Shown in pieces: positions 1 through 59,024 of a stretch of DNA of 59,024 bases; position 1 is the first letter of the stretch; each line of letters begins with the position of its first letter. Where the stretch lies: sequence record KY014601.1; one strand, 5' to 3'. A model generated the notes under the pieces. That model was given only the letters and a program-made list of their open reading frames with translations. It was not told the origin of the DNA and made no database searches. Position numbers and translations under genes: made by a program. This stretch comes from Escherichia phage Utah.

Positions 1-224
1 GGTGCGCAGAGCCGCTTTCTCGGAAAATGGGCCGGATCTGCCATAGCCCCGCTTTGCGAAATCAATAACTTAGCCGAAAAACCGAATTTCTCCCGTAGGG
101 AGTCTCCAAATCGCGGTGGTGACGGGGGTGCGGGCGGAACGGCGCTTTAGCCCCGCAATCGGTTGATTGTATTACTGTTTTACCCGGTGGGCGGGTGCTG
201 ACCAAGTCCACGGCAGCAGTATCA

Positions 225-504
225 GGTTACAAGTTACAGACGGGTTACAAGTTTTTCACTTTGTAACCTCTGACTATCTAACTGTTTTTACAACGTTTTT
301 CTTCTATAAAGTTACAAGTTACAAATAAAGTATAGTAATAGTCCAGAAATAGAGAAAACGAGGTAAAAATGTGAATTTTATATAGGGGGGAATTTTACCC
401 GGGCGCTAAACCACTTCGGTTTGTAACCTGAATACCCGGATCGCTGAGAGCCGCGCCGCCACTGGCCTGAACATGGTTACAAACGGCGAAAATGGTATGT
501 AACC
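225..504. repeat. Cluster of at least 8 GGTTACA/TGTAACC half-sites (direct and inverted) around an AT-rich stretch; candidate replication origin or operator array
   Basis: GGTTACAAGTTACA at 225-238 and 311-324; GGGTTACAAG 242-251 facing TTGTAACC 261-268; TTGTAACC 421-428; GGTTACAAA 475-483 facing TGTAACC 498-504; AT-rich 270-400; no convincing ORF in 1-613. Confidence 0.5.
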
Positions 505-545
505 TTTTGCCCGTTTTGGCCGTTTTCTTGCGTTTCAATAACAAA

Positions 546-593
546 TTTGTTATACGTCTTGACCTGAATCCTGCTATAATTTATTTGTTATAA
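546..593 (+). promoter_or_regulatory. Extended -10 promoter (TGCTATAAT, 572-580) for the HTH gene, bracketed by direct TTTGTTATA repeats (546-554, 584-592)
   Basis: TGnTATAAT match 34 nt upstream of ATG 614; RBS AAGAGG 602-607; nearby TTGACC (559-564) is only 10 nt from the -10, so not a canonical -35. Confidence 0.4.
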
Positions 594-941: not shown

Positions 942-3527
942 CTAAACTTCGTCTTCATCGTCAAACGGGTCTGGCTTTTTGCCGACCAGTTTTTCGACTT
1001 CTGCGTCATGCCGTTTTAACGTAGTCTGCACCCATGACGAGTTAAGTTTCCCCGCGTCATCGAATGCCCCTTTGACCCGCTTACGGACATAAACGCGGCC
1101 AGATTCGCCGCCAAATTTGACCACGCCGCCCGGCTTGAAGCCCAATTCCATAAGCATGTTTTTCAGGCGGTTCGTCTTCGGCATTTCCACGTCTGTCATT
1201 TCGAGGAATGCGTTTTTCAGGGACGGCACGAAGATGACGTCGCGGTGTACGCCCGGCGTCGTTCCGTCACGAAGCATTTGTGCGATTGCGCCTTCCACGC
1301 CATCGTCAGACGCGTCGGCCATGACCGCGAATGCTTCGGTGTCCTGCGGTGCGTGTCCTTTGGCATCGAAATCCTTTCCGATCTCCCAATCGAGGAACCA
1401 CTTTTTGATAGCAGGTGCGTGGTTTTCGATTGCCCGGTACACGTTTTTGAAGAAGCGCGCGCGTTCAGTCTTCGACCCGTAAACCCGCTCCATGTCCAGA
1501 TGATTTTCTGCCTGCGTTGACACCACCAGATAACGACGCTGGTTTTCATCGAGTGGCAATGCGTTGAAGTGGTTGGTGAACATCATTTTGCTGCTGGTGT
1601 TCACTACTTCCTTCGGCTTGCGGCCCTTTGGCTCAATCTGGAAGCGGTCGTTTGTGATGAATTCCTTCTGGCGTTCCACCGCGCTGTACCTATCGCCTTT
1701 GTCGTAGATCTCTTCCACGATTTTCAGGATGTGGCCCTCGGCCCAATCGCTGAAACGGCCATTCATCACGGTGTTTGACACATAGCCCACGTTCGACGCG
1801 CCGAGCATCCGCGACATGATGATGCCGAGCGTCGTTTTACCAGAACCATGCGCACCACGGATCAGAAGCGAGTAGTTGATGCGTTTCGTTGGGTGCTGAA
1901 TAACCCACGCCATCCAGTCCAGAACATAGCGGCGTTCCTTCTCGTTCGGGAAAAGCACGATGAAGAAGTCTTTGATGATCTCCAGCGCCTTTTTGTCGTA
2001 CGGAGAAAGGTCAGTCGCGGCCTCCGGAATGGATTCAGGGTCAAAAGAGTTCAGCCACGTACGCCCACGGTCGTCAATAAAGAATTCCGGCCCGATCACC
2101 CCCTCTTTCGGCTTCCACACAGATTCCGGCATGTCACCGTGCATCGCCGGGTAGTACATCGCGTCCCAAACGATAGGAACCGGGCGGACTACCGACGCAT
2201 AGTGGACAGGCTTGAAGGCTTCTTCCTCAAACACGCATTTTTTCGCAAAAGCGACGTCGAAAGCGCCTTTTGTGATGTAATCGCCCGTGGTTTTTTCGAT
2301 AAAACTGTCATTTGCCTTCGAGAAAACGAAGTTTTTCAGCCACTGCGGAGTCTCTTTTGACCCGTAATCGAAGCCCAAAAGCTCCCTTTTGTCACCAGCA
2401 GTGAGGCGGAAGTTGTTGATCCTGCGGTATGCTTCGGCCGCAATCTGGACGATGGCCTTGCGGGTAAGCCCGAAAATCTGCGCTTTTTTGAATGATTCGG
2501 CCCACGCATTCCAGTCATTCGCCTCGGTACACTCGGCGAAAGCCTCGCGGTACTCGATGGCGCGTTCTTCCTGCTCGGCTTTCTCGATGTCCTGCACTTC
2601 TTTGATGATGGTGCCGAGCGTGATCAGTCGAGTCGAGTTGTGCGCGAAGCCCTTATCCCACTTGTATTCGAAATCACCTTCGTCGAAGTTGTGTGCCTGC
2701 ATGGCCCATTCGCGGGCAATGGCCTTCGCCTCGTCCTGATCGCGGCAGGAAATTTGCAGCGCGGCCAGTACGGTGATGTAGTTCTCGTAATCTTCCGGGT
2801 TCGGGTATTTCAGGACGATGTCGCGCAGTTCATCGTACGTGCCGTCCCACTTTTTGACGTCAGACAGCGCGGCCCAATCGTCATCGTCTGCCGAACCGAT
2901 AGACTCATAACCGTTCATTGGCCGTTTGACCATTGTCCAGCCCAAGTCCTTCGCGTATCGGTCGAATTCGGCGGCGATCTCGCGAGCGGTATCGAGGCTG
3001 ATCTCTTCGAGGTCAAGGTCGGCGGCGTTGTTCAGCGGATTCTCGCCATCAATCCAGTAATAGTCGCGCTTGGTGTCCGGGTGGATACCGTACGCAACGA
3101 ACTGCTGGCCGTCGGCGAGGATTTCAACTGCATGGCGCTGGCCGAAGTCGTCTTCCCACACGCCGGATTTCACTTTGGCGAACGGGTTTTCGGTTCGGTA
3201 CAGGTAGAGTTTCTTCGGCTCCCGGCCGATACGACATGGCGCTGCACCGACGTTCTCGGCGATCCAGTCTGCCATGTGCGCCACGGCGTCTTCATCGTAA
3301 ACGTCGATGTCAACCGCCGGGGTGTATTTGGTCAGAATCCCGATGCCGTTATTCGTATAGCGTTTCGCCCAACGCTGGATCTGCTCCTTATCATTGATTG
3401 TTCGTTCCCAATCTTCACCGATAGGGCGTTTGCCCGCACCCTTCTTATCGGCGTCCGGGGCGTAGATAGGTACGATGGTGTACCCATTCCCCCAAAGCGT
3501 TTCGCCGTACTCTTGCCAGTAGTTCAT
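942..3527 (-). CDS. Bifunctional primase-polymerase (PrimPol N-terminus) fused to D5/SF3-type helicase
   Basis: 861 aa; N-terminal PrimPol-like region (TIVPIYAPDADKKGAGKRPIG..., VDIDVYDED acidic motif); C-terminal Walker A GAHGSGKTT; acidic tail ...DDEDEV. Confidence 0.8.
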   Translation of the reverse strand: MNYWQEYGETLWGNGYTIVPIYAPDADKKGAGKRPIGEDWERTINDKEQIQRWAKRYTNNGIGILTKYTPAVDIDVYDEDAVAHMADWIAENVGAAPCRIGREPKKLYLYRTENPFAKVKSGVWEDDFGQRHAVEILADGQQFVAYGIHPDTKRDYYWIDGENPLNNAADLDLEEISLDTAREIAAEFDRYAKDLGWTMVKRPMNGYESIGSADDDDWAALSDVKKWDGTYDELRDIVLKYPNPEDYENYITVLAALQISCRDQDEAKAIAREWAMQAHNFDEGDFEYKWDKGFAHNSTRLITLGTIIKEVQDIEKAEQEERAIEYREAFAECTEANDWNAWAESFKKAQIFGLTRKAIVQIAAEAYRRINNFRLTAGDKRELLGFDYGSKETPQWLKNFVFSKANDSFIEKTTGDYITKGAFDVAFAKKCVFEEEAFKPVHYASVVRPVPIVWDAMYYPAMHGDMPESVWKPKEGVIGPEFFIDDRGRTWLNSFDPESIPEAATDLSPYDKKALEIIKDFFIVLFPNEKERRYVLDWMAWVIQHPTKRINYSLLIRGAHGSGKTTLGIIMSRMLGASNVGYVSNTVMNGRFSDWAEGHILKIVEEIYDKGDRYSAVERQKEFITNDRFQIEPKGRKPKEVVNTSSKMMFTNHFNALPLDENQRRYLVVSTQAENHLDMERVYGSKTERARFFKNVYRAIENHAPAIKKWFLDWEIGKDFDAKGHAPQDTEAFAVMADASDDGVEGAIAQMLRDGTTPGVHRDVIFVPSLKNAFLEMTDVEMPKTNRLKNMLMELGFKPGGVVKFGGESGRVYVRKRVKGAFDDAGKLNSSWVQTTLKRHDAEVEKLVGKKPDPFDDEDEV

Positions 3528-3805
3528 TCAAGGATTTCCCCTGTTTCGCTGTCCGTTTTGATCCATGAAGGGTTAGTCAGCCAATGCGGACGGATGCCGC
3601 AGTGAGGGACAGCTTTGCAAACTTTTTCGGCCACGCTGCTCGTTACGTTGTTCTGCACGGCCCATAACAATGTCGGGTAACTGATCTTCGCTGCCTTCGC
3701 CAGTTCGGCCATTCTGGCGTTCGGGTCTACCTCCAAAGCCGCTTGCATCATGAGAAATTTGACCCGCATCCGGTCGTCGTTTAAAGCCCAATCTGGAAAT
3801 CGCAT
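3524..3805 (-). CDS. Small putative DNA-binding protein (HTH-like), first gene of leftward primase operon
   Basis: 93 aa; segment MAELAKAAKISYPTLLWAVQNN resembles an HTH; 4-bp overlap with primase-helicase start; promoter immediately upstream. Confidence 0.4.
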   Translation of the reverse strand: MRFPDWALNDDRMRVKFLMMQAALEVDPNARMAELAKAAKISYPTLLWAVQNNVTSSVAEKVCKAVPHCGIRPHWLTNPSWIKTDSETGEILE

Positions 3806-3847: not shown

Positions 3848-3876
3848 ATATTATATCCGGGCTTGACATCTGTCAA
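3848..3876 (-). promoter_or_regulatory. Leftward sigma70-like promoter (TTGACA-17-TAATAT) embedded in two palindromes
   Basis: Minus strand: TTGACA (3871-3876), 17-nt spacer, TAATAT (3848-3853); plus-strand palindromes GGATAT-T-ATATCC (3846-3858) and TTGACA-TC-TGTCAA (3863-3876) overlap -10 and -35. Confidence 0.55.
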
Positions 3877-3890
3877 GTTGGCCAGTTATT

Positions 3891-3941
3891 CGGGTACCAA
3901 AGGCGCTTTATGTCCGGAAAACAAAGGGCTTGCGGTACCCG
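3891..3941. promoter_or_regulatory. 8-bp inverted repeat CGGGTACC ... GGTACCCG, candidate operator in divergent control region
   Basis: CGGGTACC at 3891-3898 and GGTACCCG at 3934-3941, 35 bp apart. Confidence 0.3.
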
Positions 3942-3965
3942 AATAAAAAATTTCTAAAAAAGTGT

Positions 3966-44415: not shown

Positions 44416-44435
44416 CCCCGTTGTTGCCTTCGGGG
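44416..44435 (-). terminator. Terminator-like hairpin overlapping the start region of promoter 44438-44467
   Basis: Minus strand: CCCCG-AAGGCAACAA-CGGGG followed by AUUUU; lies between -10 and RBS. Confidence 0.45.
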
Positions 44436-44437
44436 AT

Positions 44438-44467
44438 AATATAGGTTATACACGCGACGTATGTCAA
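44438..44467 (-). promoter_or_regulatory. Leftward promoter with conserved spacer element (TTGACA-TACGTCGCGTGTATAAC-CTATAT)
   Basis: Minus strand -35 TTGACA (44462-44467); spacer contains ACGTCGCGTGTA core shared with promoters at 46494, 49756, 53083. Confidence 0.6.
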
Positions 44468-46493: not shown

Positions 46494-46522
46494 ATATTAA
46501 TTACACATGTCGCGTATGTCAA
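46494..46522 (-). promoter_or_regulatory. Leftward promoter (TTGACA-17-TAATAT) with conserved spacer element
   Basis: -35 TTGACA 46517-46522, spacer TACGCGACATGTGTAAT, -10 TAATAT 46494-46499. Confidence 0.6.
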
Positions 46523-49755: not shown

Positions 49756-49784
49756 ATATTAGTCGTACACGCGACGTACGTCAA
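49756..49784 (-). promoter_or_regulatory. Leftward promoter (TTGACG-17-TAATAT) with conserved spacer element
   Basis: -35 TTGACG 49779-49784, spacer TACGTCGCGTGTACGAC, -10 TAATAT 49756-49761. Confidence 0.6.
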
Positions 49785-52668: not shown

Positions 52669-53040
52669 TTAAACTTCGTCGTCGTCCGCGACGTCGGTGG
52701 CCGTACAGGTTACGACGGCCTGAATGAACATGCGGCCAGACGGGTAAGTCACCAGTGCGGATTCCATACTGAACCGTTGGCCGTGGTGTTTCATGGCGTT
52801 CCGGATGGAAGAATTAAGGCTGGCCCGCATCTTCGCTTTGAGGGCATTGGCCTCGTCCTGTACCTGCGAAAGCGTACGGTCAAGCGGGAGTTCTTGGGAC
52901 AGGGTGTACACGCCACCGACTTCCAGCGCAATGAGGTTCCCCACGACGCTGTACACGCGCACGCGTGACGGCAGTTCAACATCCGGCTCGGTCGTCATCA
53001 TTGCGCCAGTCAGTTCGGCCGGGCTTAGTTCTTTGCTCAT
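52669..53040 (-). CDS. Hypothetical early protein with acidic C-terminus, first gene of leftward unit 1
   Basis: 123 aa; ends ...TDVADDDEV; promoter 53083-53111 upstream. Confidence 0.5.
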   Translation of the reverse strand: MSKELSPAELTGAMMTTEPDVELPSRVRVYSVVGNLIALEVGGVYTLSQELPLDRTLSQVQDEANALKAKMRASLNSSIRNAMKHHGQRFSMESALVTYPSGRMFIQAVVTCTATDVADDDEV

Positions 53041-53082
53041 TGGGATGGCTCCAGTTGGTTCGTTAAATGTTACGTTCGGAGA

Positions 53083-53111
53083 ACAATAGTTCTACACGCG
53101 ACGTATGTCAA
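53083..53111 (-). promoter_or_regulatory. Leftward early promoter (TTGACA-17-TATTGT) with conserved spacer element
   Basis: -35 TTGACA 53106-53111, spacer TACGTCGCGTGTAGAAC, -10 TATTGT 53083-53088. Confidence 0.55.
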
Positions 53112-53164
53112 TTCATTTCATCCAGTAATTATGATGACCGGGTGACGCTCCAGTTTAGTTTCAG

Positions 53165-53409
53165 CCGGATGACGTTTTGAAGTAAGGCGGGTGGCCGGGC
53201 CGCCGGGCTTCAACCGGGTAACTTTTTCAAGTAAGCGCGGAACGTCGCAACGACAACCGGACAGGTTTTTCAAGTAAGCCCGTCGGCCGGGTGAAATTGC
53301 CCCGACGCTGGTGGACAAAACCGTCAGCCGGGTAGGTTTTTGAAGTAAGGACTGGCCGCGTTGTTCAAAATTTTTCAACCGGGTAACTTTTTCAAGTAAG
53401 CCCGTCGGG
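53165..53409. repeat. Five direct iteron-like repeats, consensus CCGG(G/A)NA(A/G)NNTTTT(C/G)AAGTAAG
   Basis: Copies start at 53165, 53214, 53257, 53328, 53379 (spacing 43-71 bp); followed by AT-rich patch and a GC-rich block 53440-53700; no ORF. Confidence 0.6.
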
Positions 53410-53706
53410 AATTTTTATAGAGAAAGTCAGGCCCGGCGCGGTCTGCCGTTGTGGGCGGTTGTCGTTTTTGGCGGAATTTCGTACAAATCGTTATAAATCA
53501 ATGGTTTAACCTATGCGCCGATCGGCCTGTTTTGGCCCGGTTGGCGTCGGTTTTTCATATAGAATTCAAGGGTTTAGGACGTGGCGCCGCGTGCCGTTTG
53601 GCGGTGTGCCGGGGCGGGGGCCGTGGGGCGCGGCGGTGCAATGCGGCCCGGCGTGGCGATCGGTGGCGCTTTTATGTGCGGTTACTCAAATAATATGAAA
53701 AAAGAT

Positions 53707-53753
53707 TTGACGCACGCCGCGTATATCATCTACATTTGAATTCCCTTCGGGGG
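53707..53753 (+). promoter_or_regulatory. Rightward promoter unit with conserved core and 5' UUCG stem-loop
   Basis: TTGACGCACGCCGCGTATATCAT-CTACAT then CCCTTCGGGGG; about 47-nt unit nearly identical to 56484-56530. Confidence 0.55.
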
Positions 53754-53800
53754 ACGGGGCAAAAAGTCCAGGCGATAAACTAACTTTATGAGGTATCACG

Positions 53801-54058
53801 ATGGAAAAGGTATATAACGCGATCAAGGGTCAGACGTTGCAACATTGGTTAACTATTGCCATCAAGCGCGACGAAAACGGAGACGCGACGGTCGAACTAC
53901 GCAGCACGATCCACGTTAACCGGGTGAGCACGCTTTCTTTTTCATGGGGGAAGGAATTCACCGACGCCGATATTTTGAATGACGCCGATTTATTACGCGT
54001 CATTTATCAGAAGTATGGGCGCGAAATTTTCACCGCTGATTTTACACGTAACATCTAA
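53801..54058 (+). CDS. Hypothetical protein (AT-richer right-arm operon)
   Basis: 85 aa; RBS GAGGT; A/T-rich codon third positions by eye. Confidence 0.5.
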   Translation: MEKVYNAIKGQTLQHWLTIAIKRDENGDATVELRSTIHVNRVSTLSFSWGKEFTDADILNDADLLRVIYQKYGREIFTADFTRNI

Positions 54059-54076
54059 TTTAATAAGGGGATCACT

Positions 54077-54616
54077 ATGCAAACCATTAACACCAAATAC
54101 CATAACGGGAAAATCGTTGCGACGTCGTGGAATGGCTGGACGCGTTCAGAATATGACGCGGCGTTATCCAGTGAGCAAAATCACCGCGCCGCCGCTGAAA
54201 AGCTAATCATTAAACTGAATAAAGGCCGCTCGATGGAATGGGGGATCGTGAATAGTGCGCCATCCGTGCCGGGCGTGCGTGGTAAAGATAACGGCTGGAC
54301 GTTTATTATTGGTTATGTGCCGGAGGTTGCGCCGCTGGATATGTCAATCACTGTTAAATTCTGCCCGGCAACAAATAAAGGCCCGGCGTTTATGCGCGCT
54401 TATTCGTGGTTAGTGCCGCGCGGGATCAAGGTTAACTATTCGCCACGCGTCGCCGACGGGTCAGATATTCAGGCAAACGCACGTTATGCGGCGGGAATCA
54501 TGTTAGACCGCATTAATGAAATATGCCGCGAGGGGGGCGATCTCTTAGGCTGGAAAATCGCGGACTATGTGCAACTTTACGACGGCGATCGCCTGTTCAC
54601 ACTGAAATCTAATTAA
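54077..54616 (+). CDS. Hypothetical protein
   Basis: 179 aa. Confidence 0.5.
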   Translation: MQTINTKYHNGKIVATSWNGWTRSEYDAALSSEQNHRAAAEKLIIKLNKGRSMEWGIVNSAPSVPGVRGKDNGWTFIIGYVPEVAPLDMSITVKFCPATNKGPAFMRAYSWLVPRGIKVNYSPRVADGSDIQANARYAAGIMLDRINEICREGGDLLGWKIADYVQLYDGDRLFTLKSN

Positions 54617-54630
54617 TCCGGGGGCGCGTC

Positions 54631-54831
54631 ATGTTAATGGCTATTATCTTGATCGGTTATTCAATAATTGCGGCTGTTATATATCACGACGCGCGGGCGG
54701 TGTGGCGTCGCTGTAAGGTTGAGCGCCGTTATTCTTTCGGGCGCAAAACGTTTTATTTACGCGAGCGTAAAACGGGCCGTTTGATCGGCTGTTCAAATAA
54801 TTTTTTCACTCTTCTGTTACAAGGGGCGTAA
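54631..54831 (+). CDS. Small hypothetical membrane protein
   Basis: 66 aa; N-terminal hydrophobic MLMAIILIGYSIIAAVIY. Confidence 0.4.
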   Translation: MLMAIILIGYSIIAAVIYHDARAVWRRCKVERRYSFGRKTFYLRERKTGRLIGCSNNFFTLLLQGA

Positions 54832-54833
54832 CC

Positions 54834-55457
54834 ATGCGTACTATTTCACTTTATACTTTTAATGAACTGTCAGACGTCGCGAAAGCAAAAGCGATCGAAA
54901 ATTACCGCGAATATAAGAGCGGCGATCAATTCGACTTTTCAGAATACAAAGAAAGCCTACGTGAATTTTGTGATGATCTATGCGTCGAGGTGCGCGACTG
55001 GTCATACGGTCTGGGCGGTTGCGATGTTCGCTACGAAATTAATCATAGTTCAGATGTGGAAGATTTATCCGGCGTACGTGCGTACAAATGGATCATTAAT
55101 AATGTTAATGCGTTTAATATGCGTCGCCGCGTTTATCGTGAATACCGTGAAGTCAATAACCACGGTTTTAAACAAAAGGCGTCTTTCGTTAAATGGGTTA
55201 GCGGGGTGTTCAACGCGTCCGACGATTGCCCATATACAGGCGTATGCTATGACGAATCATTATTGAAGCCTTTTCGTGACTTCCTGAAAAAGCCGGATAA
55301 CCGCACGATCGCGGAACTGATACGCGAATCTATAGACGGGTATTGTTCGGATATGCTCGACGAACTGGAAGGCCGCGAAAGTGACGAATATTTACGGGAT
55401 GAACTGGAAAACGGCGACACGCCTGAATTTTTTGAAAACGGCGCTATTTATAACTAA
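54834..55457 (+). CDS. Hypothetical acidic protein
   Basis: 207 aa; D/E-rich throughout (e.g. DELEGRESDEYLRDELENGDTPEFFENG). Confidence 0.5.
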   Translation: MRTISLYTFNELSDVAKAKAIENYREYKSGDQFDFSEYKESLREFCDDLCVEVRDWSYGLGGCDVRYEINHSSDVEDLSGVRAYKWIINNVNAFNMRRRVYREYREVNNHGFKQKASFVKWVSGVFNASDDCPYTGVCYDESLLKPFRDFLKKPDNRTIAELIRESIDGYCSDMLDELEGRESDEYLRDELENGDTPEFFENGAIYN

Positions 55458-55468
55458 TCGGGGGATCT

Positions 55469-55672
55469 ATGGGTCATATGTATGGCGTTATCTTGTCAAA
55501 TGGTACGCATTGCGACACGTCAACCACGGAAAAGGGCGCGAAAAATTACGCCACGCGCCACGGGTACAAGGAAGTAAGCCGCCGCCTGAATTGCGGCTAT
55601 AGCGTCGAAATCGTAGCACATCGCGCCGGGTCGAAATGGATCGCCGGGCCTGCTGACCACTCAACCAAATAA
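55469..55672 (+). CDS. Hypothetical protein
   Basis: 67 aa. Confidence 0.4.
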   Translation: MGHMYGVILSNGTHCDTSTTEKGAKNYATRHGYKEVSRRLNCGYSVEIVAHRAGSKWIAGPADHSTK

Positions 55673-55682
55673 GGGGATCACC

Positions 55683-56231
55683 ATGAAACTGAATATTACC
55701 GCGCCGGGCCTTTTCTTTAATCGTAGCGGCGACCGCGTCACCGTGGATCAAATCGTTTTAGAGAATAGCGCCGGGGCCGTCGTGTCATTCCCGGTTAAGG
55801 GGCGGATCTGGAAAATGTACCGGGGCGCATATCGTCCGCGTGAGTTTAAGATCTGGACGGCGTCGGGCAAGTTTTACGCGGGCGAACAATCCCGATCACC
55901 GTGGGATATTGTCGGCGAGGTTGTCGCGGACGATGTGCGCCCGGTCTACTGGCAAGATCTGACCGATGACCAGAAAGCGCAAGCCGCCGCCAAATATCAC
56001 AACGGTGAAGGCACGCCGGGCGATTATTTCACCTATACGCCGGATCAATTCATTGTAATTAATGGTGACGTGTACGATCTGGACGCCGACGCGTCAGTCT
56101 ATGAGGTCGAAGGGTTAAAAGGTCATGTGCGCATACTGGAAAGCTCAAAGGCGGACGGGGCCGCGCTGGCGGTGCAATGTGTGGACGGCTGGCGGGTAAT
56201 AAGCGTTTACCGCGTACAGGTGACATCATGA
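55683..56231 (+). CDS. Hypothetical protein
   Basis: 182 aa. Confidence 0.5.
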   Translation: MKLNITAPGLFFNRSGDRVTVDQIVLENSAGAVVSFPVKGRIWKMYRGAYRPREFKIWTASGKFYAGEQSRSPWDIVGEVVADDVRPVYWQDLTDDQKAQAAAKYHNGEGTPGDYFTYTPDQFIVINGDVYDLDADASVYEVEGLKGHVRILESSKADGAALAVQCVDGWRVISVYRVQVTS

Positions 56232-56449
56232 ATAAAACCGGATTTTCGGGGAACGCCGCTAGGGCCGCGATCAAGTTTACCGCGTGCGGCGCGATCGTGG
56301 TGTTTATCGGGGCGGCGGTTATTTTCGGCGACAACGTCGGGCCGTATAAAGTGTTTTTGTATACCGTCGCCGGGGGCGTATGTGTGCGCCTGATTTGGCC
56401 TACACAAGACGAAGGCGACGCACTTATAAAACGGGATGACGGGCCGTAA
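56228..56449 (+). CDS. Small hypothetical membrane protein
   Basis: ATG 56228 overlapping previous stop (ATGA); hydrophobic AAIKFTACGAIVVFIGAAVIF; 5' end contains 27-bp repeat also found at 58480. Confidence 0.4.
   Translation: MNKTGFSGNAARAAIKFTACGAIVVFIGAAVIFGDNVGPYKVFLYTVAGGVCVRLIWPTQDEGDALIKRDDGP
56233..56259 (+). repeat. 27-bp perfect direct repeat, copy 1 (TAAAACCGGATTTTCGGGGAACGCCGC)
   Basis: Identical to 58480-58506; together they flank a ~2.2 kb block containing a promoter copy and four genes. Confidence 0.85.
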
Positions 56450-56483
56450 AGGTGACGCGGCCGACGATTAAAGAGAAAAGTTA

Positions 56484-56530
56484 TTGACGCACGCCGCGTA
56501 TATCATTTATATTTAAATTCCCTTCGGGGG
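56484..56530 (+). promoter_or_regulatory. Second rightward promoter unit (TTGACG-17-TTATAT) with conserved core and UUCG stem-loop
   Basis: TTGACGCACGCCGCGTATATCAT-TTATAT then CCCTTCGGGGG; gene ATG 56575. Confidence 0.6.
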
Positions 56531-56574
56531 CCGGGGGCAATGGGGCCGACGGTTAGCAAAACAGGTGCTACAAA

Positions 56575-57735
56575 ATGACACATGATCAAATCGTTGCAAT
56601 GGTTGGAAAATATAACATCAAGGCCGATCGCGCCGTGTCTTACAACTTTGATAAATACGGTTCAACGCAAGTCGAGATCCGCGAGGTGGACGGCGGATCA
56701 TTAATCTGGCGTGCGTGGTCTTATGAAAGCAATTTCGAAAACGTGTTAGAAAGCGCGCTTGATCATTCCGGTGTGCTGAAAACCGCCGACGAAATCGCCG
56801 AACAGGAAGCCGCCGCACGCGCTCAACGCTTGCGCACTGACGCAATTTTCTTCGATGTTCACGGGTTCGAAGATGATTTCATCCTCAACCTTTCCGACTT
56901 TACCCGCGCTGAAATCGAAGCGGAGATCATCGCGATGAATGCAGAATTAAACGCGGCAAGCGCCAACGCCGACGCCGACGCGGTTGATCACGTTTTACGC
57001 TCAACAAATCCGGCGGGGGAATACGTTTATTTAAAGCGCGGTTACTGGATGTTAGATCTTGATGACGCGGAGATCCTCAACGCCCGCCCGGATATTCACT
57101 GGACAAGCCTTTACGACACGCCGATCGAATATGTGACCGTTGAGCAGGCCCGCAAGGATGACCCGGAAAGCGATTTCATCAAACAACTTAAAGCGGGCTA
57201 CGTGACCGCCCCGACCGACTACGTCGATCGCGCGTGCGCCGCCGTTGAGCGGGGAAACGTTAACGCATCGGGGATCGTGCTGCATACCTTGCGCGACAAA
57301 ATCGACGGCGAATTTTACGAAATCGCGACACGTATTAGCCCGGCGGAATATCAGCTTTATCGTGTGCGCGTTGTCGTGTCCTGCTGCATTGATGGCGCAT
57401 TTCATAATGTCATTGAACTGGATCGCGATGTGAACACGGTTGAGCACGTCCGCGACGTGGTGCGCGTCGGCTGCATGAAACAATATATCAAGCAAGCCCG
57501 CGCGACGTATACCGCGACCGGGGCCGCCACGCTCAACAATGACAAGACGGCGACCCGCATCAAGATTAAAACCGTTGCGGGAATGACGTTGATCGCTAAA
57601 ACCGAAGACGTGATTTTTTCAGATAGCGGCCTGTTTTGCTCCGCGTGGTTGATGCGTCTTGATTTGCTGGAAAACAAGACTTACGCGCAAGCCGTCACGA
57701 CGTCGCAGATCAAAACCATCGAATTCATCAAATAA
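56575..57735 (+). CDS. Hypothetical protein
   Basis: 386 aa; no motif recognised. Confidence 0.5.
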   Translation: MTHDQIVAMVGKYNIKADRAVSYNFDKYGSTQVEIREVDGGSLIWRAWSYESNFENVLESALDHSGVLKTADEIAEQEAAARAQRLRTDAIFFDVHGFEDDFILNLSDFTRAEIEAEIIAMNAELNAASANADADAVDHVLRSTNPAGEYVYLKRGYWMLDLDDAEILNARPDIHWTSLYDTPIEYVTVEQARKDDPESDFIKQLKAGYVTAPTDYVDRACAAVERGNVNASGIVLHTLRDKIDGEFYEIATRISPAEYQLYRVRVVVSCCIDGAFHNVIELDRDVNTVEHVRDVVRVGCMKQYIKQARATYTATGAATLNNDKTATRIKIKTVAGMTLIAKTEDVIFSDSGLFCSAWLMRLDLLENKTYAQAVTTSQIKTIEFIK

Positions 57736-57778
57736 GGATCATCACAATGGGTATTAACATCATTAAACTGGATCGAGG

Positions 57779-57994
57779 TTGGTAATTATGGCGGGATTAT
57801 GGTTTTTCGTTGTGACGATGTGCGGCGCGGTTGGTGCTGATAATAAGGCGGCGGATTGTCATGATTATGTGATTGACGCGGGGATCTCGTTTGACGATTG
57901 CCGCGCGTCCGTGGCGGCTTATCCGGGCCGCATTGGCTTATATTCCGCACGTTGTGACCGGGGCGAGGCGGTAGAAGGGGGCAACGATGAATAA
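57779..57994 (+). CDS. Small hypothetical Cys-containing protein
   Basis: 71 aa; hydrophobic N-terminus, four Cys. Confidence 0.4.
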   Translation: MVIMAGLWFFVVTMCGAVGADNKAADCHDYVIDAGISFDDCRASVAAYPGRIGLYSARCDRGEAVEGGNDE

Positions 57995-58238
57995 AGGCCA
58001 ATACCGCGCCGCGCGTCGCCTGATACGTGATAACGGGATCTATGCGTTGCGATGGCTGGACGATGACACCGCGCCGATCATGGACGTGTTAGCAAGCCAG
58101 CATGATGACCAGTTAAAGACAAGGGCGGCGATCGTGGCGTACAGCGCCCGCGCCGGGCTTCCCTGTAATGTGCGTAAAACGGCGTCACTTGATCTTTTAG
58201 CGCGGTACAATGACCGCAAGGCGGCCCACAATGGATAA
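57987..58238 (+). CDS. Hypothetical protein
   Basis: 83 aa. Confidence 0.45.
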   Translation: MNKGQYRAARRLIRDNGIYALRWLDDDTAPIMDVLASQHDDQLKTRAAIVAYSARAGLPCNVRKTASLDLLARYNDRKAAHNG

Positions 58239-58482
58239 GGCGCAACGCTTAACGGCTGCACGTATGGCGGCGGATCGGTATGCCGGGATCGCACGGGCAA
58301 AAGGTTTTAAGCGTCATATTGATGGCGTGACGTTTACCCGGGCTGATGCGGATCTAACGTGGGATGACCGGGCGCGCGCTTTCCGTGTGACGCTGTACAA
58401 AATGGACGGGGCCGCACGTCTTTCCGTTGCCACTGTACGCGCGAATGCGATGCTTAACGTGCTGTTAAAAGCGTTTATCTAA
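58231..58482 (+). CDS. Hypothetical protein
   Basis: Start placed at ATG 58231 (overlap with previous stop) instead of 58210. Confidence 0.4.
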   Translation: MDKAQRLTAARMAADRYAGIARAKGFKRHIDGVTFTRADADLTWDDRARAFRVTLYKMDGAARLSVATVRANAMLNVLLKAFI

Positions 58483-58506
58483 AACCGGATTTTCGGGGAA
58501 CGCCGC
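58480..58506 (+). repeat. 27-bp perfect direct repeat, copy 2
   Basis: TAAAACCGGATTTTCGGGGAACGCCGC immediately after the stop of the last right-arm gene. Confidence 0.85.
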
Positions 58507-58551
58507 ACGATCCCTTTTAACCTGTTTTGACATATTCCCCATGTATCAAAG

Positions 58552-58575
58552 GCCGCCTATCCGGGCGGCTTTTTT
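58552..58575 (+). terminator. Rho-independent terminator ending the right-arm operon
   Basis: GCCGCC-TATCCG-GGCGGC followed by TTTTTT (58570-58575). Confidence 0.7.
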
Positions 58576-58585
58576 ATTGCCTTTC

Positions 58586-58783
58586 TGATATACGCGGCGT
58601 GCGTTGCGGTGCCGTGTAGCGGGCCTATGGTGTGCCGTGTGCGATGATATACGCGGCGTGCGCATGGCGGCCCGTCCTGATTTCTTCCTTCCTGATATAC
58701 ACGACGTGCATCAAAGCGGCCTTATGTGCGCGCTATGCCGTATGGCGGCCCGCTATGGTGCTGCATGATATACGCGGCGTGCG
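58586..58783. repeat. Four direct repeats of TGATATACGCGGCGTGCG (reverse complement of the rightward promoter core), lacking a good -35
   Basis: Copies at 58586, 58645, 58693 (variant TGATATACACGACGTGCA), 58766; spacing 48-73 bp; copy 4 reverse complement matches 53710-53729 over 20 nt. Confidence 0.75.
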
Positions 58784-59024
58784 TTGGCGTTATGCGGCTG
58801 CATATGGCTATCTATTCCCCTTTCTATGGTATCCCCTGCTATATGGTGTGACGGGGCGTTATTGTATGCCCTTATTTCGACCGCTACGGGGGGTAGACGG
58901 GGCGATCGTGGTGTAAGGTATGACTACCTATTACGATCTATCTTGCGTGGCGTGGCGGGCGGCTGAGGAAGAATTACGGTCATGCTTTCAAAAAGGTACT
59001 TACCCGGCGATCGGTCGGCCCGGG

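What the first reader, a model, noticed from the sequence alone, without database searches (positions are those of the whole stretch)
58586..58783. Right-end cluster of four promoter-core repeats in reverse orientation without functional -35 boxes
TGATATACGCGGCGTGCG occurs four times at 48-73 bp spacing just after the right-arm terminator; its reverse complement matches the core of the rightward promoters (20/20 nt for copy 4) but the TTGACG -35 is replaced by CAACG/ATGCG-like sequence. A tandem array of regulator sites without promoters could be a titration sink, a terminase small-subunit binding array (cosB-like R sites), a partition-like site, or part of the replication origin if the genome ends join the 1-613 repeat region.
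Basis: partly seen in the sequence, partly recalled or inferred. Interest (0 to 1): 0.65.

Follow-up and report, generated by a model that had tools for sequence, protein, structure and literature searches.

The report
Promoterless operator cluster beside phage cos
Four copies of the regulator-binding sequence found in this Chi-like phage's accessory-gene promoters sit, without any promoter, between the last terminator and the cohesive genome end; related phage genera keep them, so they probably hold a phage regulator there, but their purpose is untested.

Summary
The window is the complete genome of E. coli phage Utah, a Chi-like phage with experimentally mapped cos ends. There are three exact copies and one 3-mismatch copy of TGATATACGCGGCGTGCG at 58586, 58645, 58693 and 58766. 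They start 10 nt after a strong terminator and lie 241-438 bp from the right cos end.

The repeat is a 17-bp dyad, AYRYACRY-S-RYGTRYRT. It occurs exactly ten times in 59 kb: over the -35/spacer of six sigma70-type promoters of the two accessory operons, and at these four promoter-less sites.

- The array is under purifying selection within Chivirus.
- It is present at the same place in at least five other lineages.
- It tracks each genome's own promoter operators, including a variant in Klebsiella phage Seifer.
- It could not be recognised in Proteus phage Inception.

A lambda-like cosB candidate lies at the opposite (left) end, and the TerS DNA-binding region is invariant while operators change. 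That argues against a TerS array. An iteron-like, AT-rich region at 220-520 is the better origin candidate.

Best reading: auxiliary or decoy operators for a phage HTH regulator, with Cro/CI-like gp3 as candidate. Whether they loop, block, titrate or help packaging is unresolved. This is a new variant of a known kind, of moderate interest.

The parts
58548..58581 (+). Intrinsic terminator of the right operon (11-bp GC-rich stem, then a T-run)
   Evidence: Inverted repeat (I2). Folds at -17.4 kcal/mol, z = -2.9. Almost invariant in 13 Chivirus genomes and conserved across genera.
58586..58604 (.). Array site A1: promoter-less operator (dyad core 58588-58604, ATATACGCGGCGTGCGT)
   Evidence: Forms a conserved island in the inter-genus alignment A1.
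58645..58663 (.). Array site A2 (core 58647-58663, ATATACGCGGCGTGCGC)
58693..58711 (.). Array site A3, the variant copy (core 58695-58711, ATATACACGACGTGCAT). It is canonical in FSL SP-088 and SP-099.
58766..58784 (.). Array site A4 (core 58768-58784, ATATACGCGGCGTGCGT). With its flanks it is the 20/20 reverse complement of the rightward promoters.
53707..53736 (+). Rightward promoter TTGACG-N18-TACATT, with the operator at 53710-53726
56484..56513 (+). Rightward promoter TTGACG-N18-TATATT, with the operator at 56487-56503
53083..53111 (-). Leftward promoter TTGACA-N17-TATTGT, with the operator at 53092-53108
49756..49784 (-). Leftward promoter TTGACG-N17-TAATAT, with the operator at 49765-49781
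   Evidence: The hexamers were read from the sequence context.
46494..46522 (-). Leftward promoter TTGACA-N17-TAATAT, with the operator at 46503-46519
44438..44467 (-). Leftward promoter TTGACA-N18-TATATT, with the operator at 44448-44464
58626..58846 (+). Second direct-repeat family, (C)TATGG(TG), six copies at 58626, 58741, 58754, 58803, 58825 and 58842. The copies are interleaved with the operator sites and continue towards cos.
   Evidence: 6 observed against 0.15 expected, Poisson P = 1.6e-8. One inverted copy lies at 41-45. Related motifs occur in relatives.
58866..59024 (.). Cos-proximal block conserved across genera, including TTTCAAAAAGGTACTT at 58986
   Evidence: It is also conserved in Inception.
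1..12 (+). 12-nt 5' cohesive end GGTGCGCAGAGC (cosN)
   Evidence: Determined experimentally for phage Utah (PMC5374247).
41..168 (.). Candidate lambda-like cosB: TAGCCCCGC at 44-52 and 148-156, each followed by an IHF consensus (60-72 on +, 156-168 on -)
   Evidence: The first motif and the IHF-like site are conserved in five genera.
3524..3805 (-). gp3, a 93-aa Cro/CI-type HTH protein and the candidate operator binder. Its stop overlaps the primase start.

Best explanation
The four repeats are promoter-less copies of the 17-bp dyad operator (AYRYACRY-S-RYGTRYRT). That operator overlaps the -35 hexamer and spacer of the six sigma70-type promoters that drive the two accessory operons (genes 41-58 leftward, 59-74 rightward).

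They are most likely bound by the same phage-encoded dimeric HTH regulator that acts at those promoters. The best candidate is the Cro/CI-like gp3 (3524-3805). At promoters, a site in that position would occlude RNA polymerase.

The array then serves as a cluster of auxiliary or decoy operators at the boundary between the right operon's terminator and the cos region. It would keep a block of regulator there. That block could (i) loop to the identical operators of the rightward promoters 2.1 and 4.9 kb away, (ii) back up the terminator as a roadblock that keeps transcription out of cos and the origin-like region, and/or (iii) buffer free regulator.

Shown here: the sequence family, its restriction to ten sites, the absence of promoter elements, purifying selection, conservation across genera, and agreement with each genome's own promoter operators.

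Inferred, not shown: protein binding, the identity of the binder, repression rather than activation, early timing of these operons, and which of (i) to (iii) applies.
For: - The dyad pattern with up to 1 mismatch hits exactly 10 places in 59 kb against 0.43 expected: six promoters and four array sites.
- The promoters have near-consensus hexamers with the operator spanning -35 and spacer.
- The array has no promoter on either strand and no unusual RNA fold. Frame-breaking indels among close relatives exclude coding.
- Among 13 Chivirus genomes, operator columns vary in 8 of 68 positions against 58 of 156 for interstitial DNA (Fisher p = 1e-4).
- Array-like clusters follow the last terminator in Smarc5, Redjacvirus, Enc34 and XAP3, in Seifer and in AVP3. 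Positions are partly conserved: 58-59 bp between the first two sites in four lineages, and the last site 195-216 bp from a cos-proximal anchor.
- Seifer carries a variant operator (TGCACnCG-NNN-CGnGTGCA) at 4 leftward and 2 rightward promoters, and matching TTGCACTC sites in its right end.
- Array sites are closer to their own genome's promoter operators than to other genomes' (3.15 against 4.73 mismatches; 3 of 720 permutations do as well).
- gp3 models confidently (pLDDT 94) as a helical HTH whose best PDB matches are all Cro/CI/XRE-type DNA binders.
- The putative gp3 recognition helix TLLWAxxNN is kept in the six ACG-operator phages. It differs in AVP3 and Inception, whose operators differ.
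Against: - No binding data exist. The gp3 assignment rests on a correlation confounded by overall divergence. The Foldseek E-values are weak (0.075 or higher).
- No operator lies near gp3's own promoter.
- The array stays next to cos rather than next to the terminator in AVP3, where an HNH gene separates them.
- The array is interleaved with a second, cos-directed repeat family. This hints at a cos-related rather than purely transcriptional role.
- Orientation relative to the rightward promoters is not conserved: opposite in Utah, the same in Seifer.
- No such array was recognised in Inception, although its genome architecture is the same.
- Other small proteins of the accessory operons could be the binder. 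Family searches on 25 of them, plus one XAP3 homologue, found nothing informative, and the rest were not screened.
Confidence: 0.5

Rival explanations
1. A cos accessory element. The operator-like sites, together with the interleaved TATGG repeats, form a nucleoprotein complex on the side of cos that is packaged last under lambda-like polarity. The complex would assist terminal cos recognition and cleavage, or protect or handle the DNA end during ejection and circularisation. The regulator would be reused as an architectural protein.
For: - The array always lies in the cos-flanking non-coding DNA. It stays next to cos in AVP3 although an HNH gene separates it from the terminator.
- Spacing and distance to the cos-proximal anchor are partly conserved across genera.
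- It is interleaved with six direct TATGG repeats that continue to cos, with one inverted copy at 41-45.
Against: - The same operator sits in six internal promoters, through which terminase must translocate anyway.
- The cos-proximal block is conserved in Inception while the array is not, so packaging there does not need it.
- No satellite or plasmid carrying this cos was found that could define a minimal cos.
Confidence: 0.2
2. A TerS-binding array, cosB-like. Small terminase would bind the four repeats to position TerL at cosN.
For: - Multiple sites at about 50-70 bp spacing resemble the spacing of lambda R sites (my own knowledge of lambda cosB).
- They lie near cos.
Against: - TerL, gpW, portal, protease, gpD and gpE are lambda-family, so cosB is expected on the other side of cosN.
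- That other side carries TAGCCCCGC twice, each followed by an IHF consensus. The first motif and an IHF-like site are conserved in five genera.
- The TerS N-terminal ~100 aa are nearly invariant in Utah, Seifer, Enc34, XAP3 and Inception, while the operator differs in Seifer and Inception.
- TerS sites would not be expected inside six promoters.
- The array is 241-438 bp from the end.
Confidence: 0.07
3. Part of the replication origin. An initiator would bind direct-repeat sites here and dyad versions at promoters, as in the iteron/operator duality of plasmid Rep proteins. gp3 is translationally coupled to the primase-helicase gp2.
For: - The copies are direct within the array and dyad at promoters.
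- In Utah the gp3 stop overlaps the gp2 start.
- After cos joining, the array lies about 0.5 kb from an AT-rich region.
Against: - The array is 60.5% GC with irregular 48-73 bp spacing and no DnaA box.
- A much better origin candidate exists at 220-520. It has nine GGTTACAA-type repeats around a 28% GC stretch. The repeat changes by genus (GTTACAA, ATTACAA, GTAACAA), and the region is present in Enc34, which lacks gp1.
- The gp3 homologue is not adjacent to the primase in AVP3.
Confidence: 0.08
4. Non-functional relics of duplicated promoter fragments, kept similar by gene conversion with the rightward promoters.
For: - The 17-20 nt identity to the rightward promoters within Chivirus.
- Site A3 toggles between variant and canonical forms.
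- No recognisable array in Inception.
Against: - Only the operator is retained, never the -10 or leader sequence.
- Operator columns are significantly less variable than neighbouring DNA.
- Clusters of 3-4 sites persist at the same place in at least six lineages whose intervening sequence has diverged.
Confidence: 0.07

Closest known systems
Lambdoid Cro/CI operators (lambda OR/OL, 434, P22); from my own knowledge
   Same: Pseudo-palindromic sites of about 17 bp with a central base pair. They overlap promoter elements, occur in several copies with slightly different half-sites, and are bound by dimeric HTH proteins. gp3 models as this fold class.
   Different: Here the operators sit singly at six dispersed promoters rather than in tripartite clusters. 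The only cluster has no promoter and lies next to cos. The phage is described as lytic.
Distal auxiliary operators that act by DNA looping (lambda OL-OR, coliphage 186 FL/FR flanking sites, lac O2/O3); from my own knowledge
   Same: Promoter-less copies of an operator placed hundreds to thousands of bp from the regulated promoter.
   Different: There are four sites with partly conserved ~59 bp steps, placed after a terminator and beside cos. Looping was not tested.
Dispersed phage repressor sites: mycobacteriophage L5 gp71 'stoperators', the 17-bp conserved inverted repeats of phiC31, P1 C1 operators; from my own knowledge
   Same: One regulator has many sites genome-wide, some at promoters and some not. 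Copies keep a uniform orientation within a region.
   Different: Stoperators are asymmetric 13-mers inside transcribed intergenic gaps and act in lysogeny. Here the non-promoter sites are dyads confined to one cluster downstream of a terminator.
Lambda cosB (R3-I1-R2-R1 sites bound by gpNu1 and IHF); from my own knowledge
   Same: Several short protein sites about 50 bp apart, flanking cosN of a phage with gpA-type terminase.
   Different: The array is on the opposite side of cosN and 241 bp or more away. It shares its sequence with promoters and does not track TerS conservation. A better cosB candidate lies at 41-168.
Iteron plasmid Rep systems (direct repeats at ori, inverted repeat at the rep promoter); from my own knowledge
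   Same: The same recognition sequence is used as direct repeats in one locus and as a dyad at promoters.
   Different: The array is GC-rich, irregularly spaced and not adjacent to an AT-rich unwinding element. A separate iteron-like region exists.

Membership tests
Sigma70-type promoter | -35 and -10 hexamers at 16-18 bp spacing | tested here: not met
   The scan of 53000-59024 finds the three neighbouring promoters but nothing in 58576-58800 on either strand. The -35 positions read CAACGC, ATGCGC, TTGATG and CAACGC.
Dimeric HTH repressor operator (Cro/CI type) | Dyad-symmetric site of about 14-21 bp | tested here: met
   The 17-bp pattern AYRYACRY-S-RYGTRYRT is its own reverse complement. 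All four array sites match it with 0-1 mismatch.
Dimeric HTH repressor operator (Cro/CI type) | The same site overlaps core promoter elements of the regulated genes | tested here: met
   Six promoters carry it across the -35 3' half and the spacer. The array copies themselves are promoter-less.
Dimeric HTH repressor operator (Cro/CI type) | Sequence constraint on the site relative to flanking DNA, and co-variation with the regulon's other sites | tested here: met
   8 of 68 against 58 of 156 variable columns, p = 1e-4. Own-genome promoters are nearest in 5 of 6 genomes, and 3 of 720 permutations do as well. Seifer carries a variant.
Dimeric HTH repressor operator (Cro/CI type) | Specific binding by the cognate protein | not testable with these tools
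   Candidate gp3 rests on fold class and helix/operator correlation only.
Lambda-type cosB (TerS R sites) | Lies next to cosN on the side packaged first, with IHF site(s) between R sites | tested here: not met
   The array is 241-438 bp left of the right end. The R-like motifs with IHF consensus are at 41-168 of the left end. Packaging polarity itself is inferred from lambda homology, not measured.
Lambda-type cosB (TerS R sites) | Site sequence tracks the TerS DNA-binding domain | tested here: not met
   The TerS N-terminal ~100 aa are nearly invariant across five genera, while the operator differs in Seifer and Inception.
Iteron-type replication origin | Closely and regularly spaced direct repeats abutting an AT-rich unwinding region | tested here: not met
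   Spacing is 59, 48 and 73 bp. The array is 60.5% GC, with no DnaA-box-like sequence within 1 kb of either genome end. That architecture is instead present at 220-520.
Partition site (parS/sopC type) | Clustered sites accompanied by ParA/ParB-type genes | tested here: not met
   No partition genes appear among the first 55 annotated genes of Chi. Family searches on 25 of the accessory-operon proteins also found none; the rest were not searched.
Stoperator-like elongation blocks (L5 type) | Asymmetric sites in one orientation within transcribed intergenic regions | tested here: inconclusive
   Orientation is uniform within the array. However, the sites are dyads, lie after a strong terminator, and occur nowhere else outside promoters.

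The most novel reading that the evidence does not exclude
The regulator that shuts the accessory-operon promoters, possibly gp3 (co-translated with the primase-helicase in most genera), also has a second role. Together with the factor that reads the interleaved TATGG repeats, it would build a fixed-geometry nucleoprotein complex on the last-packaged side of cos. Gene shut-off would then be physically coupled to cos cleavage, packaging termination or DNA-end handling. This would be a dual-use operator array not described for lambda-type cos phages.
Probability: 0.15. Interest if true: 0.75.

Novelty: new variant of a known kind. Interest (0 to 1): 0.5.

Why it matters
Chi-like phages (Casjensviridae) are widely isolated and are proposed for biocontrol. 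Yet in the papers I could search, their regulation is not described.

This analysis defines a compact regulon: six operator-bearing promoters plus a conserved four-site promoter-less cluster. It also names a candidate regulator, a candidate cosB and a candidate origin. All are directly testable with gel shifts, reporter fusions and small deletions.

If the array proves to be more than a decoy, it would show how a lytic cos phage ties its transcription programme to the genome end.

Tried and rejected
- Utah's own GenBank record is not in the phage collection, so Chi's annotation was used instead.
- The first k-mer script timed out.
- An IMG/VR scan with the cos-proximal 16-mer returned mostly chance hits. 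Only known isolates carried arrays.
- A scan with the operator 15-mer found multi-copy patterns only in Chivirus genomes.
- Rfam gave no family anywhere in the genome. The array has no unusual RNA fold on either strand, so a structured RNA is rejected.
- No copy of the cos region was found in E. coli genomes or plasmids, so no satellite helps define a minimal cos.
- Pfam, PHROG and NCBIfam scans of 25 accessory-operon proteins gave no DNA-binding candidate.
- The XAP3 gene annotated 'DNA binding protein' is homologous to Utah 56228-56449 and, by inspection of its sequence, looks like a small two-transmembrane-helix protein.
- PDB sequence searches with TerS and gp3 found nothing.
- gp1 (XRE HTH) is rejected as the binder. 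It is missing from Enc34 and Inception and is not homologous in Seifer and XAP3, although Enc34, XAP3 and Seifer keep the operator system.
- GC skew follows transcription direction and gives no origin signal.
- Small ORFs annotated over the array in some records are rejected because close relatives differ by frame-breaking indels.

Full report
**Identity of the window**

The 59,024-bp window is the complete genome of Escherichia coli phage Utah, a Chi-like siphovirus (Casjensviridae, Chivirus). Its length and left-end sequence match the genome announcement. That paper reports run-off sequencing showing 12-nt 5' cohesive ends, GGTGCGCAGAGC at the left (PMC5374247). Phage Chi has the same ends (PMC4342425).

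The right-end 625 bp matches 111 phage records. Of these, 87 match over at least 80% of its length, and nearly all are Salmonella or Escherichia Chi-like phages. The array lies 241-438 bp from the right cos end.

**Check of the observation**

TGATATACGCGGCGTGCG occurs exactly at 58586, 58645 and 58766 on the plus strand. It occurs with three mismatches at 58693. Two more exact copies lie on the minus strand at 53711 and 56488. That is six matches against 0.15 expected. Spacing is 59, 48 and 73 bp.

The two minus-strand copies lie inside TTGACG-N18-TACATT and TTGACG-N18-TATATT promoters. Copy 4 with its flanks is a 20/20 reverse complement of both.

The array begins 10 nt after a strong hairpin plus T-run at 58548-58581 (-17.4 kcal/mol). 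No sigma70-like promoter is detected in the array on either strand.

**What the repeat is**

Relaxed searches showed that the 18-mer belongs to a larger family. Its core is a 17-bp dyad, AYRYACRY-S-RYGTRYRT. With at most one mismatch, this pattern hits exactly ten places in the genome, against 0.43 expected.

Those ten places are:
- the four array sites;
- the two rightward promoters;
- four leftward promoters at about 44.45, 46.5, 49.8 and 53.1 kb.

Each promoter is a near-consensus TTGAC(A/G)-N17/18-TAnAnT promoter upstream of a gene block. In each, the dyad covers the 3' half of the -35 hexamer and most of the spacer.

The six promoters drive only the two accessory operons: genes 41-58 leftward and 59-74 rightward. 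Their proteins are almost all of unknown function. A dyad in that position is the classical signature of an operator for a dimeric DNA-binding protein that occludes RNA polymerase. That last step is inference from general knowledge.

**The array is not RNA or protein coding**

Rfam finds nothing in the genome. The array folds no better than shuffled sequence on either strand (z = -0.54 and 0.05). Close relatives differ by 1-nt and 3-nt indels inside the small ORFs that some records annotate there.

**Conservation**

I aligned 13 Chivirus genomes that are 86-99% identical in this region. All keep four sites. Operator columns are variable in 8 of 68 cases, against 58 of 156 for the DNA between and around them (Fisher p = 1e-4). 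This test does not correct for shared ancestry. Site A3 changes between the variant and the canonical sequence, but always stays within the dyad pattern.

Beyond the genus, three or four operator-like sites follow the last terminator in:
- Serratia phage Smarc5;
- Providencia phages PibeRecoleta and Redjac;
- Hafnia phage Enc34, where the first of the three sites lies just before the first terminator hairpin;
- Xanthomonas phage XAP3.

In the inter-genus alignment, sites 1, 2 and 4 stand out as conserved islands. Geometry is partly kept. The first two sites are 58-59 bp apart in four lineages. Spans are about 180 or about 239 bp. The last site lies 195-216 bp upstream of a conserved TTTCAAAAAGGTACTT near the end.

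**Co-variation with promoters**

Klebsiella phage Seifer (Yonseivirus) has a major capsid protein 87% identical to Utah's. It has no match to the Utah pattern in the last 8.2 kb examined. Instead it has a variant dyad, TGCACnCG-NNN-CGnGTGCA.

A whole-genome scan finds this variant at four leftward promoters, two rightward promoters, and three to four sites in the right-end non-coding DNA. That is the same layout as Utah. The half-site TTGCACTC is specific to Seifer's rightward promoters and its array.

Across six genomes, array sites are closer to their own promoters' operators than to those of other genomes. The means are 3.15 against 4.73 mismatches of 17, and 3 of 720 permutations do as well.

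- Aeromonas phage AVP3 has another operator variant and a cluster of direct TGATACG repeats next to its right end.
- Proteus phage Inception has a quite different promoter dyad, ACACC-N7-GGTGT. I could not recognise an operator array in it, only GGTGT-type direct repeats.

So the array is widespread in the family but not universal.

**Orientation**

Within a genome, all array copies point the same way. Relative to the rightward promoters they are inverted in Utah and co-oriented in Seifer. A symmetric binder would not care about this.

**Arguments against a TerS array**

TerL has the lambda gpA ATPase and nuclease domains. It is followed by gpW, a lambda-family portal, an S49 protease, gpD and gpE homologues. 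The cohesive end is a 12-nt 5' overhang, as in lambda.

By homology, cosB should lie to the right of cosN, that is, at the left genome end. That end carries the only two exact copies of TAGCCCCGC in the genome, at 44-52 and 148-156. Each is followed by one of only four IHF-consensus matches in the genome, at 60-72 and 156-168. The first motif and an IHF-like site recur at the same place in Seifer, Enc34, XAP3 and Inception.

The N-terminal ~100 residues of TerS (Pfam DUF1441) are almost invariant in all five genera. The operator is not. TerS would also have no obvious reason to bind inside six promoters. I therefore rate the cosB-like reading low.

**Arguments against an origin**

The array is 60.5% GC, is irregularly spaced, and has no DnaA-box-like sequence nearby. 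The left end holds nine GGTTACAA-type repeats in both orientations around a 27.6% GC stretch.

The equivalent repeats change by genus: GTTACAA in Utah and Seifer, ATTACAA in Enc34, GTAACAA in XAP3. They are present in Enc34, which lacks gene 1. That region is the better origin candidate.

**Who binds the operators**

gp1, the annotated XRE HTH, is absent from Enc34 and Inception. It has no detectable homologue in Seifer and XAP3. It therefore cannot be the conserved binder.

gp3 (93 aa) is present in all genomes examined. It models with pLDDT 94 as a helical bundle. Its best PDB matches are all Cro/CI/XRE-type HTH proteins, including ClgR, SinR, HipB, HigA, the 434 and lambda repressors and C.AhdI. 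The scores are weak, with E of 0.075 or higher.

Its putative recognition helix, TLLWAxxNN, is kept in the six phages with ACG-type operators. It reads TLLDSIKRG in AVP3 and GVSQAIDRG in Inception, whose operators differ. This fits gp3 as the binder but is confounded by overall divergence. I treat it as a candidate only. Family searches on 25 of the other accessory-operon proteins found no DNA-binding domain; the rest were not screened.

**A complication**

The right-end non-coding DNA contains a second direct-repeat family, (C)TATGG(TG). Six copies lie on the plus strand between 58626 and 58846, against 0.15 expected (P = 1.6e-8). They are interleaved with the operator sites and continue towards cos. 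One inverted copy lies at 41-45, inside the left-end R-like motif. Related motifs occur in the relatives.

In AVP3 the array stays next to cos, although an HNH gene separates it from the terminator. These facts keep a cos-related role alive.

**Conclusion**

The best-supported statement is that the four repeats are promoter-less auxiliary or decoy operators for the regulator of the accessory-operon promoters. They sit at the terminator/cos boundary.

The data cannot say which function applies:
- looping to the identical rightward-promoter operators;
- acting as a roadblock behind the terminator;
- buffering free regulator;
- serving as an architectural element for cos.

The element is not described in the papers I could search, which are genome announcements and characterisation papers without promoter analysis. 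It is a new variant of a known kind and is readily testable.

Noticed in passing
window 220-520: Nine GGTTACAA/TTGTAACC repeats in both orientations flank a 27.6% GC stretch (285-400). The repeat sequence changes by genus (ATTACAA in Enc34, GTAACAA in XAP3), and the region is present where gene 1 is absent. This is a likely replication origin.
   Followed up: partly
window 41-168: The only two exact TAGCCCCGC copies in the genome (44-52, 148-156) are each followed by an IHF consensus (60-72 on +, 156-168 on -). The first motif and an IHF-like site are conserved in five genera. This is a lambda-like cosB candidate.
   Followed up: partly
window 58626-58846 (and 41-45, inverted): Six direct (C)TATGG(TG) repeats are interleaved with the operator sites and run towards cos (expected 0.15). 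Similar motifs occur in relatives. The binder is unknown.
   Followed up: partly
window 538-592: The gene-1 promoter TTGACC-N17-TATAAT is bracketed by the palindrome ATAACAAATTTGTTAT (538-553) and a related TTATTTGTTATAA (about 580-592). This looks like a separate operator system for the variable HTH protein gp1.
   Followed up: no
window 56233-56259 and 58480-58506: An identical 27-nt sequence, TAAAACCGGATTTTCGGGGAACGCCGC, starts at the stop codon of gene 74 (58480-58482) and just after the stop of the 55683-56231 gene. Its function is unknown.
   Followed up: no
window 53743-53752, 56520-56529; leftward promoters near 44425, 46480, 53070: Transcripts from the operator promoters begin with a conserved small hairpin: CCCTTCGGG on the rightward ones, CCCGAAGG/CCGAACG on the leftward ones. 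This may be a 5' stabilising stem-loop.
   Followed up: no
window 3848-3946: In the divergent gp3/gp4 control region, a palindrome TTGACATCTGTCAA (3863-3876) provides a consensus leftward promoter (TTGACA-N17-TAATAT) for gp3-gp2. There is also a 13-bp inverted repeat, TTATTCGGGTACC...GGTACCCGAATAA (3886-3898 and 3934-3946).
   Followed up: no
window 3524-3527: The gp3 stop overlaps the start of the primase-helicase gp2 (ATGA), which suggests translational coupling. The adjacency holds in most genera but not in Aeromonas phage AVP3. There, an AlpA-like HTH precedes the primase and the gp3 homologue lies elsewhere.
   Followed up: partly
window 53496-53508: One of only four IHF-consensus matches in the genome lies in the divergent control region between the leftward and rightward accessory operons.
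   Followed up: no
window 58604-58966: Several GenBank records of close relatives annotate small 'hypothetical protein' ORFs over the array (for example SeF6b and PMBT21). Frame-breaking indels among relatives indicate that these are not genes.
   Followed up: yes
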